Part shown: in pieces, positions 11,822 through 50,443 of the stretch
Position numbering within the stretch: the stretch's first letter is position 1
Layout: each line of letters opens with the position of its first letter
Origin: Dehalococcoidia bacterium
GTDB taxonomy: Bacteria > Chloroflexota > Dehalococcoidia > Lucifugimonadales > JAGWBF01
Direction: 5' to 3'
NCBI GenBank assembly: GCA_034423015.1
Contig: DAOUJG010000063.1
Coordinates: forward strand, 112,865-176,864
Length of the DNA stretch: 64,000 nt
Notes under the pieces: generated by a model
Told to the model about the DNA's origin: nothing
The model's input: only the letters and a program-made list of their open reading frames with translations
Databases searched by the model: none
Made by a program: the position numbers and the translations under genes

Positions 11822-12394
11822 TCATTTGGGCCTGTGGACACTGGGTAGCCCGATGAATCCTTCAGCCATGCCCCAGCGGTCTCGCTTGGAAGCGATGTAT
11901 GCAGCTACCGGGCTGGTTCTGTCGATGCCGGCACTGCAATGCACGAGCACTGGCTTGGGCAATTGGTCGAATGCTCTCAAGACCCTCTCCTTGTCATCTT
12001 CGGACGGCTCTTGGTAGTCAGCCATTGGGATATGGCGAAACTCGAACCCTTGCGAACGATAATACCCATACAGCCCATCAGGATGCAGTTCGAGTCCGCC
12101 TCTGATGTAGTACTTCTCGTGCTGAGCTTCTTCAAGTAGGCTCACAATTGAGCGAATTCCTGAAGACCTTACCTGTTCAACCCAGACTTCGACGAGTGTC
12201 CTAGCCTCTGGAGGCAACGGGTTACGTCCTCCATAGTCGGGATGGTCCCGAAGTGGCCGCGTTGAACACGCCAAGCTTCCGTCCAGTAGCCAAACTAGAA
12301 GCTCCGAATCGTTTCCTACTTGACTGCGAAATCTAGTGCTTCGGATCTTTGCCCGAATCCCCTTGGTCAACTCTGCCAATTCCATAAGGTGCAA
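11822..12394 (-). CDS. Protein-tyrosine/dual-specificity phosphatase family protein
   Basis: CX5R P-loop VHCSAGIDRTS; general-acid region IPMAD. Confidence 0.88.
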   Translation of the reverse strand: MHLMELAELTKGIRAKIRSTRFRSQVGNDSELLVWLLDGSLACSTRPLRDHPDYGGRNPLPPEARTLVEVWVEQVRSSGIRSIVSLLEEAQHEKYYIRGGLELHPDGLYGYYRSQGFEFRHIPMADYQEPSEDDKERVLRAFDQLPKPVLVHCSAGIDRTSPVAAYIASKRDRWGMAEGFIGLPSVHRPK

Positions 12395-12410
12395 TTTGCT
12401 CCAAGATCGC

Positions 12411-14183
12411 TTAGCTTGAAGGGCGGGGCCACACCTTCGTTATCGTCTCCGCCAACGCCTCGCTCCGTTGTTTGATGGCGGTTTCATCCCAACGATCGGA
12501 GGCTGAATCCAACACTTCCTTGTTGAGCATCAAAGTGCTAAAGGTATCCAATGCCCGCCGCTTGTCCCCCCATGAACGGTTGGACATCGACGAGTTCAGC
12601 GCTCTTGTTGCTAGGGTCAAGTTACCAATAAGGCCAATATGCTCCTTGCGCAATTCCTCTGCTCGGGCCTCGTCAATGTCTTGGTGAGGGAAAGGCCACC
12701 CATCCGAAGTCCAGCGCTGGGGCATCAAATGCTCTACAGTGAGGTTTGTCGGGACAGCTAGTTGTTCAGTCATGGATGGTCTCTTGCTAAGCTCGATGGT
12801 TTCCAGGATCATCTTACGCCTGGCCGCGTTCCCCGGCATCGGCCTCATGGACAGATAGTCTATTACCTGCTTGTCGTCTGGCCAGGTCCGATTTTCCGCG
12901 GTCTGGCTGACTAGGTAGTCAATAAGCACTTGATTGGCGGGCTCCTGCGTGTGTTGTGCCAAATGACTCACCAGTTCGATGAACAGGGCGTTAAGCCCCT
13001 GAGTACCCAAGTTGCATAGCACCCGCCGGACGAGAAAGCTTTCCACTGCACGAACCGCAGACTGCCGCTCTTGGTCGTTGATGTCCTGGGTGTAAAGCCA
13101 GAGCAGTGGCGGCATGACGACGCTTATTTCCAAGACCTTAAGGCGCTTCAGGATGTCGTCTATTCCCGGTTGTCTGTTTTCTTCGATGTTCTTGTAGACC
13201 ATGCCGACATTCCGCACATCTACGGCCACAGCTTCAATCGTCCGCTCTGTCTCTCCCACATACCTCCTAAAGGCTGCGGCCGTGCGATGCATTTGGACAT
13301 ATTCACGAAGGCGCATGATACACCAGTAGTTGAGGAAGCGGTCCAGTTGTATCTGAAGAACCCGCCCGCGGCTTTCCTCCTGCCTCCACCAGTCGTCTTC
13401 AAACATCCCCCAAAGCGTACGTGCCTTGGTTTCGTCATCAATTAGGTCGGCTTCGTACATCACCGTGTTCTTGATGTAGTCGGCCTGTTTGAGGGGTTCG
13501 CCTCGACTGTTCAGTATCTCAAAGGTGAAGTGGGGTTGGTCTCCCTTGTCCAGCTCTATGGTGGCAACTTTCAGATACTTCTTCACAACGTCGTAGAGCG
13601 CGTGTGCTCGGGCATCGACATGCACCGGATCCTCATTGAGCCAATTCGTTACCCACTCGCGCAGGTGCGAGTAAGCTTCAACTATGGGCCTCGACGGCCG
13701 ATTGGGGCTTAGTCTACCGTTGATAATGTCCTGGAAGTCCGCTTGGTCCAAACGATTTGACTGACGCATCTTCGTGGCATTTAGGTGGTCTCCGCCCGTA
13801 AGCGAATCCCTGTTGAATAGGTAGTCACGGAGGGAAGCGAAGTCCGACGTATCCACCAGTGCCGCCGTAAACGCCCCATCCAGGACCTTGATAAGCAGCT
13901 GCAGAGTCGTCAGGCGCTGCTGGCCATCGACGATCAAGATTGGCTGTACTTCGGAGAGCGGCGCGTCGCTCTCTCGCGGCTGCACGACTATCGCGCCCAT
14001 GAAGTGTAGGCGCACGTCCGATGCGCTCGGTGCCTTCAGCAAATCCTCCGCGACTTTCTGGACGTCGTCCCATAGAGCCTTCCACTCCTCATTCCCCCAG
14101 GCATACGGACGTTGAAATACTGGAATCCGATAGGACACGTCACGGTCAAACAGATCTTTCATGCCCATGATGCTCGCTTCCAT
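12411..14183 (-). CDS. GmrSD-family type IV restriction endonuclease (DUF262 + DUF1524/HNH)
   Basis: IPVFQRPYAW, VDGQQRLTT, FEILNSRG (DUF262); TVEHLMPQ...GNLTL...N...N (DUF1524); AAGGAG RBS. Confidence 0.93.
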   Translation of the reverse strand: MEASIMGMKDLFDRDVSYRIPVFQRPYAWGNEEWKALWDDVQKVAEDLLKAPSASDVRLHFMGAIVVQPRESDAPLSEVQPILIVDGQQRLTTLQLLIKVLDGAFTAALVDTSDFASLRDYLFNRDSLTGGDHLNATKMRQSNRLDQADFQDIINGRLSPNRPSRPIVEAYSHLREWVTNWLNEDPVHVDARAHALYDVVKKYLKVATIELDKGDQPHFTFEILNSRGEPLKQADYIKNTVMYEADLIDDETKARTLWGMFEDDWWRQEESRGRVLQIQLDRFLNYWCIMRLREYVQMHRTAAAFRRYVGETERTIEAVAVDVRNVGMVYKNIEENRQPGIDDILKRLKVLEISVVMPPLLWLYTQDINDQERQSAVRAVESFLVRRVLCNLGTQGLNALFIELVSHLAQHTQEPANQVLIDYLVSQTAENRTWPDDKQVIDYLSMRPMPGNAARRKMILETIELSKRPSMTEQLAVPTNLTVEHLMPQRWTSDGWPFPHQDIDEARAEELRKEHIGLIGNLTLATRALNSSMSNRSWGDKRRALDTFSTLMLNKEVLDSASDRWDETAIKQRSEALAETITKVWPRPSS

Positions 14184-14495: not shown

Positions 14496-15455
14496 CTAGA
14501 CTCCGGACTTTCGATGCAAAGCCTTCGCAGGGACCACCTGGCCGGTGACCTTGATGGCGCCCCCGGTGGGCACGAACCCGGAGAAGAGCTCGGGATGCAG
14601 TATCTCGGCCATGATCTCCAGGCCGTCGATGAGCCGCGGCCCTGACCTGCTGAAGTAGGCGCTGGCATCCACCACGAACACTCTGGATTGCTCCACCGCG
14701 GGGAGAGAGCTCCAGCCCTCCCGCTCGGTGAGCAGGGACACCTCCTGCAGCGCACGCTTGGCGTCGAAGCCGCAGGGAGTGACCAGTATCACCTCGGGAC
14801 GGGCCTCGAGGACCCGTTCCCACTCGATGCGAAACGACGGAGTGTGCTTGTCGCCCAGGACGTCCTCGCCCCCGGACATCTCCACCATCTCGGGCACCCA
14901 GTGCCCGGCCGCCAGCACCGGGTCCATCCACTCGAGGCACGCCACCCGGGGCCTCGTGTCCGCCAGGGCCGCCCTTGCCTCGACCGCCTCCACCCTGCGG
15001 CTCAGGGAGCCGGCGAACCGTTCCGCCTCGTCCCGGGCCCCCGTGGCGTCGCCCACCTTCAACACGTCCCCTATCACGTCGCCCACCGAGCTGGGGTCCA
15101 GGGACAGTATCTCCGGCTTCCTGGCCAGGGTCTCAGTTGCGTCGGCAACCTGCCGCGCGGTTATCGCTCACTCTCCGCATAGCTCCTGGGTGAGGAGCAG
15201 GTCGGGTTCCAGCTTCTCCAGAAGCTCCACGTCGATGTCGTAGATGCCCTTCCCCTCGGTGAGCCGCTCCTCGATGATCCGGTGTATATCGCCGCTGGAG
15301 TAGTCGCCGTCCTGGAAGATGCTGTGCACGATCCAGGGCAGCTTCCGGGCCTCGGGCGGGTAGTCGCACTCGTGGCTCACACCGAGCAGATGGTCGCCCA
15401 GACCCAGGGAGTAGACGATCTCCGTGGCGCTGGGCAGGAAGGAGCAGATGCGCAT
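14496..15455 (-). CDS. BtuF-like (cobalamin-binding-type) protein without signal peptide, 319 aa, in-frame UGA at codon 96 (candidate selenocysteine, CxxU)
   Basis: MRICSFLPSATEI...HECDYP...TQELCGE[TGA]AIT...LEW...PCGF...FSRSGPRL; ORFs 15168-15455 and 14496-15086 share one frame; real stop is TAG. Confidence 0.85.
15134..15152 (-). promoter_or_regulatory. Candidate bacterial SECIS hairpin (BtuF-like gene)
   Basis: CA(G)GUUGC-CGAC-GCAAC-UG at +16 to +34 after the UGA; loop G at +25. Confidence 0.6.
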
Positions 15456-15664
15456 CGGACCTCCTCGCGTCGTCGGCCGGGGCCGGCTACCCGCCATTAT
15501 GCCACGGCAGGGGCCCGATTGGTAGGAGCATGACAATCGACGCCATGCGGCCATCGGGCCTTGCGGGCATCCGGCGTTGTTGGGGCCGCCGCCATGTATG
15601 GTATAGTGTTGGCGGCCCGCCCACCCCGGCTGCAGGCCGGGCGCTCGGCCCAGACCCCTCTCGG

Positions 15665-22604: not shown

Positions 22605-23906
22605 CTAGTCAGCCACCGCCACCTGCCCGCCTATTGTCGGCCGCGGCTCCCGCATGTAGTAGACCAGCGCCGCGGAGATGGTGAGCAGGACAAGGTTCGA
22701 CCATATGGCGATGTCGTAGGTCCCCCGCCAGTCGTAGAGGACCCCGCCGAGGTAGGCGCCCAGACCGGAGCCCAGGGGCATGACGCCGAACATGGTGCCG
22801 TATATGGTGGCCAGGTTGGACACGCCGAACCTATCCGAAGCGTAGGCCGCGGTGATCCCGATGACGGCGTTCCACGACGAGCCCACCAGCATGATGCCGA
22901 TGAGGAGCGCGGCCAGCCCCAGGGACGGGATTCCCATGAAGGAGATGCCCATGGACAGGAGGACTATTACGAACCCAAGGGCCCGGAGCTCGTAGGAGAA
23001 GGCGAGAAGGAACTTGCGGCTCCTGGAGCGGTCGGACAGGTGTCCCAGTATGAGGGTCCCGACTATGGCCCAGAGTCCGATGAGGCTGAAGCCGGCCGCT
23101 CCCACCATGGGATGGTAGCCGAGGTCCTGGGCGTAGGAGACGAAGTGAGCATTCACGAAGCTCATGGAGTACCCTCAGACGAAGTAGCCGAAGGTCAGCC
23201 TCCAGAAGAACCCCGTGCGCAGCGCCTCGCCGAAGGTGGCGTCAGGCCCAGCTTCCACCGCAGGGTTGGCGGGCTCGGAGGACGGGGAAGGCTCCGCCCG
23301 GCGGGGCGCAAGCCCCACGTCGCTGGGACGGTTCTTGACGAACAGCAGCCCCACCGGCAGGACCACGGCCAGCAGGAGCACCCCCAGGAAGAGGTACGCC
23401 TCCCTCCAGTCGAAAAGCACGACGAAGCTGGAAGCGGCGGGCACCAGTACGATGGCGCCGATGGAGCCGCCGCCGGTGATGAGACCCAAAGTAAGGCCCC
23501 GGTTGGTATGGAACCAGGCGCTTACTATCTTGGTGAGAGTCGATCCTGTCCCCAGGGTGAGGCCGACGCTCATCACGGCGAAGATGACGTACAGTTGGGC
23601 CAGGTTGCTTGTGAGGGGCAGGAGCAGGAGCATGATGCCCATCAGCACCACGCCCGACAGGGCCACCACCTTTGGGCTGTACCGGTCGGCCAGGAACCCG
23701 GCCACGGGACGCAGCAGGCCCGACAACATGAAGGTGGTCCCGAAGGCCAGGGAGAGGGTCGCCCTGCTCCACTCGAACTCCTCGGTCATGGGTTTCAGGA
23801 ACACGCCGAAGGAGAACTGCGTGCCGGTCATGCCCATGGCTATCAGCGCGCCGCCGATGACGACGAACCAGCCGTAGAAGATGTTGGTGCGCCCTACAAT
23901 CCTCAT
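22605..23906 (-). CDS. MFS transporter, 433 aa, in-frame UGA at codon 244 (candidate selenocysteine)
   Basis: N-half ...FFWRLTFGYFV[TGA]GYSMSFVNAHF... continues in frame into the C-half; the two ORFs are the two 6-TM halves of one MFS; real stop is TAG. Confidence 0.85.
23146..23164 (-). promoter_or_regulatory. Candidate bacterial SECIS hairpin (MFS gene)
   Basis: UGAGCUU-CGUG-AA(U)GCUCA at +11 to +29 after the UGA; GU in the apical loop. Confidence 0.55.
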
Positions 23907-49714: not shown

Positions 49715-50443
49715 ATGAGCCCCACGGCACGGCTGGAGCCTGTCCCGGAGGACTGGGAGAGGGCCCTTGCCATCGCCGCCCACCCCGACGACCTGGAGTA
49801 CGGAGCGGCCGCCGCCATCGCCAGGTGGACCGACCAGGGAAAGCGGGTGGTCTACCTGATGGTCACCCGGGGAGAGGCGGGCATCGACGGCATGCCTCCC
49901 CACGAGACAGGGCCCATCCGGGCGGAGGAGGAGCGCCGCAGCGCCGCGGTGGTGGGCGTGGACCAGGTGGAGTTCCTGGACCACCGGGACGGCGTCATAG
50001 AGTACGGTCTGCCCCTGCGCAGGGACCTGGCGCTGGCGATACGGAAACACCGTCCCCAGGTGGTGATCACCCTGAACCACCGCCTGACGTGGCCCGGCGG
50101 CGGCCTGAACATGGCGGACCACCGCAACGTGGGCCTGGCCGTTTTGGACGCCGTGAGGGATGCGGGCAACAGGTGGGTCTTCACAAATGAGTCCGGAGAG
50201 GGTCCCGAGCCCTGGAACGGCGTGGAGACGGTCCTCCTCAGCGGCTCTCCCGAGCCCACCCACGGGGTGGACGTGACGGACCACTTCGACCGGGGGGCCG
50301 CCTCCCTGGCGGAGCACAGAACGTACCTGGAGGCCCTGGGCAACGCCGACCGGACCCACGAGATGCTGCGCGAGTTCGCCAGGGACGCAGGCAGGGCGCT
50401 GGGATGCGACCTGGGCGTCCTGTTCCAGGCGGTCCGGCCATGA
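49715..50443 (+). CDS. PIG-L/LmbE family deacetylase
   Basis: AHPDDLE, TRGEAG, DH. Confidence 0.92.
   Translation: MSPTARLEPVPEDWERALAIAAHPDDLEYGAAAAIARWTDQGKRVVYLMVTRGEAGIDGMPPHETGPIRAEEERRSAAVVGVDQVEFLDHRDGVIEYGLPLRRDLALAIRKHRPQVVITLNHRLTWPGGGLNMADHRNVGLAVLDAVRDAGNRWVFTNESGEGPEPWNGVETVLLSGSPEPTHGVDVTDHFDRGAASLAEHRTYLEALGNADRTHEMLREFARDAGRALGCDLGVLFQAVRP

What the first reader, a model, noticed from the sequence alone, without database searches (positions are those of the whole stretch)
14496..15455. Candidate new selenoprotein: signal-less BtuF-like protein with a CxxU motif and a SECIS-like hairpin
Seen: the two ORFs share one frame (15170-15086 = 84 nt) and are separated only by TGA at 15168-15170, reading TQELCGE[TGA]AITARQV; the gene ends in TAG. 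A bulged hairpin, CA(G)GUUGC-CGAC-GCAAC-UG, lies at +16 to +34, with G at the second loop position. The codons there (GTT, GCA, ACT) end in A/T although most codons in the gene end in G/C. Established: bacterial SECIS elements lie just 3' of the UGA with G early in the apical loop, as in E. coli fdhF, and Sec typically replaces a Cys of a CxxC motif. Recalled: this cobalamin-binding-type subfamily carries TQxLCxVC. Inference: this is a CxxU selenoprotein. It also has HECD and PCGF cysteines, no signal peptide and no neighbouring permease/ATPase, which suggests a cytoplasmic metal/redox protein rather than a B12 importer. I do not recall this family in bacterial selenoprotein lists.
Basis: partly seen in the sequence, partly recalled or inferred. 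Interest (0 to 1): 0.9.

Follow-up and report, generated by a model that had tools for sequence, protein, structure and literature searches.

The report
Known BtuF-like selenoprotein gene, Dehalococcoidia
This is almost certainly a real selenocysteine-containing gene for a cytoplasmic BtuF-like binding protein from a Dehalococcoidia bacterium, but the family is already listed in published selenoprotein catalogues, so its main remaining interest is its unknown function.

Summary
The sequence observation holds. One minus-strand frame (15455..14496) is interrupted only by TGA at 15170..15168, inside a conserved LTQxLCxx[C/U]A motif. The TGA is not an error or a pseudogene. It sits at the same codon in 27 distinct orthologs (about 53-96% identity), all Dehalococcoidia/Chloroflexi, and aligns with Cys (TGC/TGT) in 60 homologs from other lineages. 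Selection is purifying on both sides.

The likely SECIS is a different, overlapping hairpin with an invariant core, CGGC-AGGUN-GCCG, 13-25 nt after the UGA. Across 27 genes, synonymous change is absent only in its codons.

Three related genomes with the Sec form also encode a Sec-containing SelD. No selA, selB or tRNA-Sec was seen in the DNA sampled, and the window's own genome could not be searched.

The novelty claim fails. [quoted passage not shown]

The protein lacks a signal peptide and has a heme/B12-binding-protein fold. It has four invariant Cys/Sec residues, at least three of them probably lining the ligand cleft. Its function is unknown.

In passing: an MFS transporter gene 8 kb away also carries a conserved Sec/Cys-type TGA and was not found in the literature searched.

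The parts
14496..15455 (-). Read-through gene for a 319-residue cytoplasmic BtuF-like (Peripla_BP_2) protein with one Sec codon. ATG at 15455..15453, TAG stop at 14498..14496.
   Evidence: Translation. PF01497 E = 7e-23. pN/pS is 0.13 upstream of the TGA and 0.15-0.32 downstream. Orthologs in L001-L008 and L012-L031.
15168..15170 (-). In-frame TGA at codon 96, the proposed selenocysteine codon. It is the second position of the CxxC/CxxU motif (C93-G-E-U96).
   Evidence: TGA at this codon in 27 distinct genes. TGC in 49 and TGT in 11 homologous loci.
15139..15158 (-). Probable SECIS hairpin GCGCGGCA-GGU-UGCCG(A)CGC, at +13 to +32 counted from the U of UGA. The invariant core CGGC-AGGUN-GCCG-A is 15155..15142.
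   Evidence: It is the MFE structure, -10.7 kcal/mol. Positions +16..+23 and +25..+29 are invariant in 27 unique sequences; only loop nucleotide +24 varies. The apical pairs hold in 24/24 sequences, and the lower stem shows compensatory changes. Codons R101 CGG, Q102 CAG and A104 GCC are among only 6 codon-invariant columns of 96.
15134..15152 (-). It overlaps the real one and is not conserved.
   Evidence: -6.2 kcal/mol. 66.7% of cells paired, no compensatory change, and pairs 20-36, 22-35 and 24-33 broken in 12-19 of 24 sequences.
15460..15466 (-). Ribosome-binding site GAGGAGG, 4 nt upstream of the ATG.
   Evidence: Read directly from the sequence.
15366..15368 (-). Codon for Cys30 (SHECDYP), invariant in the family. 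By alignment it lies in the N-lobe loop that corresponds to the SYSDYP loop of BtuF.
   Evidence: Invariant column in A1/A2. Alignment to 5ysc.
15177..15179 (-). Codon for Cys93, the first Cys of the CxxU motif.
   Evidence: Invariant column.
14772..14774 (-). Codon for Cys228 (TPCGF), the invariant C-lobe cysteine.
   Evidence: Invariant column.

Best explanation
The gene encodes a cytoplasmic protein with the fold of a heme- or B12-type periplasmic binding protein. The second cysteine of a conserved cleft motif, LTQxLCxxC, is replaced by selenocysteine.

Shown: the UGA at codon 96 is translated rather than terminating, because the frame is kept and is under purifying selection on both sides in 27 orthologs. 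The position is Cys in all non-Sec homologs.

Inferred: decoding is the standard bacterial route. SelB carrying Sec-tRNA(Sec) is recruited by a SECIS hairpin in the coding sequence. Here that is the invariant CGGC-AGGUN-GCCG stem-loop 13-25 nt after the UGA, sitting on a variable lower helix.

Inferred with less confidence: C30, C93 and U96 lie in loops that by alignment line the inter-lobe ligand cleft, and C228 follows a C-lobe strand that probably faces it too. Together they bind, or carry out thiol/selenol chemistry on, a metal-containing ligand. A corrinoid, a heme-like tetrapyrrole or a metal ion are the candidates. The more nucleophilic selenol would improve that chemistry in one Dehalococcoidia clade.

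The protein is not a classical importer receptor, because it has no signal peptide.
For: - TGA conservation: TGA sits at the same codon in 8 close relatives and in 20 of 80 species-representative genomes, all Dehalococcoidia/Chloroflexi. The other 60 have TGC or TGT.
- Selection: pN/pS is 0.13 before the TGA, 0.30 in the 29 codons between the TGA and the gene callers' restart, and 0.15 after that.
- SECIS: a 35-nt invariant run spans the UGA and the hairpin. Synonymous divergence in the 10 codons after the UGA is 0.08, against 0.33-0.45 elsewhere.
- Codon control: across 27 genes only 6 of 96 invariant degenerate columns are codon-invariant. Four of them are the TGA, R101 CGG, Q102 CAG and A104 GCC. 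Other invariant Arg and Ala columns use 3-6 codons.
- Loop base: the only varying base of the core is the last loop nucleotide, the Val wobble position.
- Cys-form control: none of the 60 Cys-form genes has the core.
- UGA as a stop: TGA ends 22 coding-like ORFs in the window, so UGA is not reassigned genome-wide.
- Sec trait in the clade: SelD with an in-frame TGA at the Cys17 position lies 8.6 kb from the Sec-form gene in L028. SelD also lies on two further contigs that carry the Sec form. BSepDB lists Dehalococcoidia MAGs with 46-49 selenoprotein genes. 8/4-type tRNA-Sec is reported in Chloroflexi.
- Fold: the AlphaFold2 model of a 60%-identical Cys form has pLDDT 91.7. The best Foldseek matches are heme binders RhuT, ShuT, PhuT and BhuT, and BtuF.
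- Literature: the family is catalogued as a CxxU selenoprotein.
Against: - Machinery: no selA, selB or tRNA-Sec was found in the window or in 1.6 Mb of related loci. The window's own genome beyond 64 kb could not be searched.
- SECIS models: no Rfam SECIS family matches. Fold-energy z-scores are weak in this GC-rich context (-0.7 to -2.2).
- Covariation: the apical stem never varies, so it gives no covariation evidence. Lower-stem covariation is modest, with 23 of 500 shuffles reaching the observed score.
- Chemistry: sequence alone cannot tell Sec from Cys inserted at UGA.
- Function: no coordinates were available to measure Cys-Cys distances. No neighbour is conserved across phyla. No cobalamin riboswitch was found.
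Confidence: 0.8

Rival explanations
1. The UGA is recoded, but to cysteine or another standard amino acid rather than selenocysteine. One route would be a SelC*-like tRNA-Cys(UCA) with a SelB-like factor, as proposed for some deltaproteobacteria. Another would be near-cognate suppression.
For: The mechanism is documented in PMC5389517. Sequence data cannot distinguish the residue inserted. The aligned residue in homologs is Cys.
Against: Genomes carrying the Sec form encode SelD, which is needed only for selenium use, and that SelD itself has a Sec-type TGA. The hairpin apex GGU resembles classical SelB-binding loops (own knowledge of E. coli fdhF and Moorella SECIS). If Cys were inserted, nothing would favour keeping TGA plus a costly hairpin over TGC across a whole clade.
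Confidence: 0.07
2. The TGA is a true stop. The locus encodes two polypeptides, a 95-residue N-terminal piece and a ~190-200-residue C-terminal piece, which assemble into a split binding protein.
For: This is how gene callers annotate every Sec-form locus.
Against: - The 29 codons between the TGA and the called restart are under purifying selection (pN/pS 0.30) and align residue for residue with the continuous Cys-form proteins.
- The called restart codons differ between close relatives.
- The break falls inside an invariant motif, exactly at a Cys of the homologs.
- The nucleotide-level freeze after the TGA has no explanation under this model.
Confidence: 0.04
3. The gene is a pseudogene or carries a sequencing or assembly error at this codon.
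For: A single window taken alone cannot exclude it. Some related long-read assemblies do carry indels in neighbouring sequence (L012 N-terminus; L005 MFS gene).
Against: The same TGA occurs in 27 distinct sequences from many samples and assemblers, with low dN/dS on both sides and no other stop or frameshift. The truncated N-terminal fragment is present in database clusters of up to 145 members, many of them seen on several contigs each.
Confidence: 0.01
4. UGA is reassigned genome-wide in this organism (genetic code 4 or 25), so the TGA is an ordinary sense codon.
For: None specific.
Against: TGA terminates 22 ORFs with a clear coding signature in the window. Only two genes in 64 kb have an internal TGA, and both align with Cys in homologs. 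The genome is 66% G+C, unlike known code-4 or code-25 lineages (own knowledge).
Confidence: 0.01

Closest known systems
[quoted passage not shown] 2022 (PMC9312934) and Zhang et al. 2026 (PMC13188914) and attributed to Peng et al. 2016
   Same: Same superfamily assignment: BtuF-type Peripla_BP_2, and NCBI names the Cys homologs 'cobalamin-binding protein'. Same CxxU motif and a single Sec. Known only from metagenome-assembled genomes, and usually annotated as truncated pieces.
   Different: The catalogue gives only a table row, with no SECIS, taxonomy, localisation or function. I could not retrieve the representative accessions (RUA21600.1, MDE0719563.1) to prove they are orthologs. The window gene is the rarer CGEU subtype; most Sec forms are CEVU.
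E. coli BtuF and the heme-binding proteins ShuT, PhuT, RhuT and BhuT (class III periplasmic binding proteins)
   Same: Same two-lobe fold (TM-score 0.7-0.8) and the same Pfam family. The CxxU loop follows the strand that aligns with PDLVIAW85 of BtuF, and the HECD loop aligns with the SYSDYP loop. From memory, both are ligand-contacting regions in BtuF.
   Different: No signal peptide. No adjacent BtuC/BtuD genes in the Sec forms. Four invariant Cys/Sec residues that are absent from the solved homologs. It scores 53 bits against the BtuF equivalog model, whose cutoff is 234. No cobalamin riboswitch.
SaoB and SaoX, the selenocysteine-containing ABC substrate-binding proteins of the SAO system (Haft and Gwadz 2023; preprint 10.1101/2022.07.06.499078)
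   Same: They set a precedent for Sec in the ligand pocket of a binding protein rather than in an enzyme active site, proposed there as a soft-metal ligand.
   Different: Different binding-protein fold class. They are secreted or lipoproteins, have CU or UxP motifs, are part of a nine-gene operon, and occur in Clostridia, spirochaetes and deltaproteobacteria.
Bacterial SECIS elements of E. coli fdhF and Moorella thermoacetica fdhA
   Same: A hairpin in the coding sequence just 3' of the UGA with G-G-U at the apex. The UGA-to-loop spacing of 17 nt falls within the 16-37 nt range of the bSECIS model as I recall it (own knowledge).
   Different: The loop is A-GGU-N on a 4-bp G/C stem. The lower stem differs between the two subtypes. 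No Rfam SECIS model matches.

Membership tests
Bacterial selenoprotein gene (SelB/SECIS-dependent UGA recoding) | In-frame UGA conserved among orthologs with the reading frame maintained | tested here: met
   27 distinct genes have TGA at the same codon, with no other stop.
Bacterial selenoprotein gene (SelB/SECIS-dependent UGA recoding) | UGA aligns with Cys in non-Sec homologs | tested here: met
   TGC in 49 and TGT in 11 of 80 loci. The full-length proteins read LC-x-V-C-A.
Bacterial selenoprotein gene (SelB/SECIS-dependent UGA recoding) | Purifying selection on the sequence downstream of the UGA | tested here: met
   pN/pS is 0.30 for codons 97-125 and 0.15 for codons 126-300.
Bacterial selenoprotein gene (SelB/SECIS-dependent UGA recoding) | SECIS stem-loop shortly 3' of the UGA with G in the apical loop | tested here: met
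   The invariant CGGC-AGGUN-GCCG lies at +16..+28 and is the MFE hairpin. Synonymous sites are frozen only there. Caveats: bSECISearch was not available and no Rfam model matched.
Bacterial selenoprotein gene (SelB/SECIS-dependent UGA recoding) | selA, selB, selC and selD present in the same genome | tested here: inconclusive
   Sec-containing SelD lies on three contigs that also carry the Sec form, in a different sub-lineage. No selA, selB or tRNA-Sec was found in the 1.6 Mb sampled.
Bacterial selenoprotein gene (SelB/SECIS-dependent UGA recoding) | Selenium physically present at the residue (75Se labelling or mass spectrometry) | not testable with these tools
   This requires an experiment.
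BtuF / class III periplasmic binding protein of an ABC importer | Peripla_BP_2 domain and two-lobe fold | tested here: met
   PF01497 scores 81.7 bits against a cutoff of 27.5. Foldseek probability is 1.00 to RhuT, ShuT and BtuF.
BtuF / class III periplasmic binding protein of an ABC importer | Signal peptide or lipobox; extracytoplasmic location | tested here: not met
   The domain starts at residue 2. Stop codons lie 1-3 residues upstream of the Met in homologs. No SignalP run was available.
BtuF / class III periplasmic binding protein of an ABC importer | Encoded with a FecCD/BtuC permease and a BtuD ATPase | tested here: not met
   0 of 27 Sec-form loci and 6 of 63 Cys-form loci have BtuC- and BtuD-type genes within 10 kb. 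None was found among the window neighbours scanned.
BtuF / class III periplasmic binding protein of an ABC importer | Match to the BtuF equivalog model; cobalamin regulation | tested here: not met
   NF002894 scores 53 bits against a cutoff of 234. No cobalamin riboswitch in the window or in 16 loci.
[quoted passage not shown] | CxxU motif with a single Sec in a BtuF-type domain | tested here: met
   The motif is C93-G-E-U96 with one TGA.
[quoted passage not shown] | Orthology to the published representatives RUA21600.1 and MDE0719563.1 | not tested
   The accessions could not be retrieved and were not among the cluster members listed.

The most novel reading that the evidence does not exclude
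This cytoplasmic BtuF-fold family may be an unrecognised intracellular handler of a metallo-ligand. It could act as an acceptor or processing protein for corrinoids, heme-like tetrapyrroles or a soft metal, using a four-Cys/Sec cleft site. Dehalococcoidia would have upgraded it with selenocysteine as part of a lineage-specific selenoproteome. That selenoproteome would also include the neighbouring MFS transporter with Sec in transmembrane helix 7, a selenoprotein family I could not find in the literature I searched.
Probability: 0.25. Interest if true: 0.6.

Novelty: already known. Interest (0 to 1): 0.3.

Why it matters
For annotation, this gene and hundreds of orthologs are split in public databases into a 95-97-residue 'hypothetical protein' and a ~190-residue 'periplasmic binding protein' fragment. 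Joining them is straightforward now that the SECIS core is defined.

For biology, the family shows Sec in a binding-protein fold rather than a thioredoxin-fold enzyme, and its function is unknown. The clade-specific Cys-to-Sec switch, the invariant four-Cys/Sec site and the lack of a signal peptide make it a tractable target for asking what selenium adds to ligand binding or processing.

The conserved CGGC-AGGUN-GCCG element is a usable search pattern for further Dehalococcoidia selenoproteins.

Tried and rejected
- Rfam, at the gathering threshold on the whole window and at the permissive threshold on 15050-15250, found no SECIS or other relevant family.
- Fold-energy z-scores were not informative in this GC-rich sequence.
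- The representative-library search with the 95-residue N-terminal piece returned mostly fragments from short contigs and added little.
- The neighbourhood clustering across 90 loci found no partner conserved beyond Dehalococcoidia synteny. Many top clusters were antisense-ORF artefacts.
- The cobalamin-riboswitch test was negative.
No coordinates are returned, so Cys-Cys distances could not be measured.
- Cluster 9, which seemed to hold full-length forms, turned out to be a gene-fusion clustering artefact.
- The SelD contig-length fingerprint trick did not reach the window's own sub-lineage.
- There were no plasmid matches.
- Peng et al. 2016 mentions neither BtuF nor a cobalamin-binding protein in its main text or in its held supplements; the only 'cobalamin' hit there is CobW. 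So the primary description could not be read.

Full report
**What is in the sequence.** The feature lies on the minus strand. From ATG at 15455 to TAG at 14498..14496 there is one reading frame of 319 sense codons. It is broken only by TGA at 15170..15168, and the context reads LLLTQELCGE[TGA]AITARQV. A GAGGAGG ribosome-binding site lies 4 nt upstream of the ATG. The product is a Peripla_BP_2 protein (PF01497, E = 7e-23). It scores far below the BtuF equivalog cutoff, 53 bits against 234.

**The TGA is conserved and aligns with Cys.** Full-length homologs at 50-60% identity read LTQ(E/G)LC-x-V-C-A, so the TGA falls on the second Cys of an invariant CxxC. The closest database relatives (77-89% identity) are all called as fragments of 190-210 residues. 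Their DNA shows a 95-codon piece, then TGA, then the rest in the same frame, in eight loci from several samples. A scan of one genome per species returned 80 loci. Twenty have TGA at this codon, all from Dehalococcoidia or unclassified Chloroflexi MAGs, with about 53-96% identity to the window protein. Forty-nine have TGC and eleven have TGT, in many phyla including archaea and other Dehalococcoidia. The best match, at 96%, is a Dehalococcoidia MAG (OZ219936.1), which places the window in that class. The truncated 95-97-residue N-terminal piece sits in database clusters of up to 145 members, many seen on several contigs. It is usually named 'hypothetical protein'.

**The TGA is translated.** Pooled pN/pS among seven close orthologs is 0.13 upstream of the TGA, 0.30 in the 29 codons between the TGA and the gene callers' restart, and 0.15 beyond. 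That excludes a pseudogene and argues against two separate genes. TGA ends 22 ORFs with a clear coding signature in the same window, so UGA is not reassigned genome-wide.

**The SECIS is not the one proposed.** The minimum-energy fold after the UGA is GCGCGGCA-GGU-UGCCG(A)CGC at -10.7 kcal/mol (window 15158..15139).
- Among close orthologs, the longest invariant nucleotide run in the gene (35 nt, against 20 for the next) runs from the codon before the UGA to the last base of this hairpin. Synonymous divergence in the ten codons after the UGA is 0.08, against 0.33-0.45 elsewhere.
- Across all 27 unique Sec-form sequences and two protein subtypes (CGEU and CEVU), positions +16 to +29 read CGGC-AGGUN-GCCG-A. 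The only variation is at the last loop nucleotide.
- Of 96 amino-acid columns that are invariant and degenerate across the 27 genes, only six have an invariant codon. Four of those are the TGA, R101 CGG, Q102 CAG and A104 GCC. Other invariant Arg columns use 3-6 codons and other Ala columns 3-4.
- The lower stem differs between subtypes but remains helical, with compensatory changes at three pairs.
- None of the 60 Cys-form genes has the core.

The weak points are that the apical stem never varies, so it gives no covariation evidence, and that no Rfam SECIS model matches.

**Sec machinery.** The window has only tRNA-Asn. No selA, selB or tRNA-Sec was found in the 1.6 Mb of fetched DNA. However, L028, a closed 2.75-Mb Dehalococcoidia chromosome with the Sec form, encodes SelD 8.6 kb upstream. 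It is 46% identical to E. coli SelD and itself has an in-frame TGA at the position of catalytic Cys17. All 120 best SelD relatives are N-terminally truncated calls. Contig lengths tie SelD to two further contigs that carry the Sec form. BSepDB lists Dehalococcoidia MAGs with 46-49 selenoprotein genes, and an unusual 8/4 tRNA-Sec is reported for Chloroflexi. The trait is therefore established in the clade but not shown for the window's own genome.

**What the protein may do.** The domain begins at residue 2, and homologs have stop codons just upstream of the Met, so the whole family is cytoplasmic. An AlphaFold2 model of a 60%-identical Cys form is confident (pLDDT 91.7). It matches heme-binding RhuT, ShuT, PhuT and BhuT, and B12-binding BtuF. 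C30, C93, C/U96 and C228 are invariant in 47 members. By alignment, the first three lie in N-lobe loops that correspond to ligand-contacting loops of BtuF (plus my recollection of BtuF).

Context gives no firm clue. A LON_substr_bdg gene is syntenic within Dehalococcoidia only. Six of 63 Cys-form loci have BtuC- and BtuD-type genes nearby, and none of 27 Sec-form loci does. One Methylomirabilales homolog precedes methylmalonyl-CoA mutase and MeaB. No cobalamin riboswitch was found. My best guess is a cleft site that binds or processes a metal-containing ligand, but this is inference.

[quoted passage not shown] 2016. The held text of that paper does not mention the family, and I could not fetch the representative accessions. 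Still, the domain, the motif and the single Sec match. As far as I could find, the SECIS core, the Dehalococcoidia restriction, the cytoplasmic location and the four-Cys/Sec site are not described in the papers searched. The discovery itself is not new.

**In passing.** An MFS transporter gene at 23906..22605 (minus strand) has a single in-frame TGA at 23177..23175.
- The TGA is conserved in every relative checked at the DNA level, down to 59% identity, including a SAR202 MAG. The 32 nt after it are almost invariant.
- All 120 best protein hits are N-terminal pieces ending at the same residue.
- Four distant MFS homologs have Cys at the aligned position.
- No MFS selenoprotein appears in the 2026 catalogue or in the text searches.

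Noticed in passing
window 22605-23906 (minus strand); TGA at 23175-23177: An MFS_1 transporter gene has one in-frame TGA inside predicted TM7 (…FGYFV[TGA]GYSMSF…). The TGA and about 32 nt after it are conserved down to 59% identity, including a SAR202 MAG. All 120 best database hits are N-terminal pieces ending at this residue. Four distant MFS homologs have Cys at the aligned position. It is a candidate selenoprotein family that I did not find in the 2026 catalogue or in text searches.
   Followed up: partly
L028:634-1638 (TGA at 682-684); same region in L094: This SelD (selenophosphate synthetase) is itself a selenoprotein (SHCAG[U]AAKIS). It lies 8.6 kb upstream of the Sec-form BtuF-like gene in a closed Dehalococcoidia chromosome, next to ATP sulfurylase and APS reductase genes. 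Its hairpin apex is CCUG-GUU-CAGG.
   Followed up: partly
window 11822-14183: A GmrSD-type restriction endonuclease (12411-14183) and a DSP-type phosphatase (11822-12394) are inserted between the target gene and the LON_substr_bdg gene, compared with the syntenic relatives L004-L008. This looks like a small defence-island insertion.
   Followed up: no
whole window: Among ORFs with a coding-like GC3 signature, TAG is the commonest stop (41), ahead of TGA (22) and TAA (4). That is unusual for a 66% G+C genome and might relate to heavy UGA recoding. The count is crude and includes some shadow ORFs.
   Followed up: no
L037, L040, L044, L047, L065, L089: In six Cys-form loci from other phyla, the signal-less BtuF-like gene lies within a few kb of BtuC-type permease and BtuD-type ATPase genes on the same strand. 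This hints at a cytoplasmic partner role for an importer in those lineages.
   Followed up: partly
L011:7001-14453: In a Methylomirabilales MAG, the Cys-form gene is immediately upstream, on the same strand, of methylmalonyl-CoA mutase, a B12-binding domain protein and MeaB. This is the only context found that points to cobalamin.
   Followed up: no
L012:10001-10100 and L005:1-886: There are apparent frameshifts in otherwise conserved genes. One is in the N-terminus of the BtuF-like gene in the 96%-identical MAG L012, and one is in the MFS gene of L005. These are probably assembly indels rather than biology.
   Followed up: no
L004:8168-9382: The LVIVD-repeat gene is 403 residues in the other relatives but is called as 280 + 120 residues, 9 nt apart, in L004. 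The cause (stop codon or error) was not examined.
   Followed up: no
window 50441-50443: A TGA has coding-like sequence on both sides. Downstream it reads …VFYYDGGCGFCRS, a DCC1-like thiol-disulfide oxidoreductase motif. This is probably just two adjacent genes in the same frame, but it was not checked.
   Followed up: no
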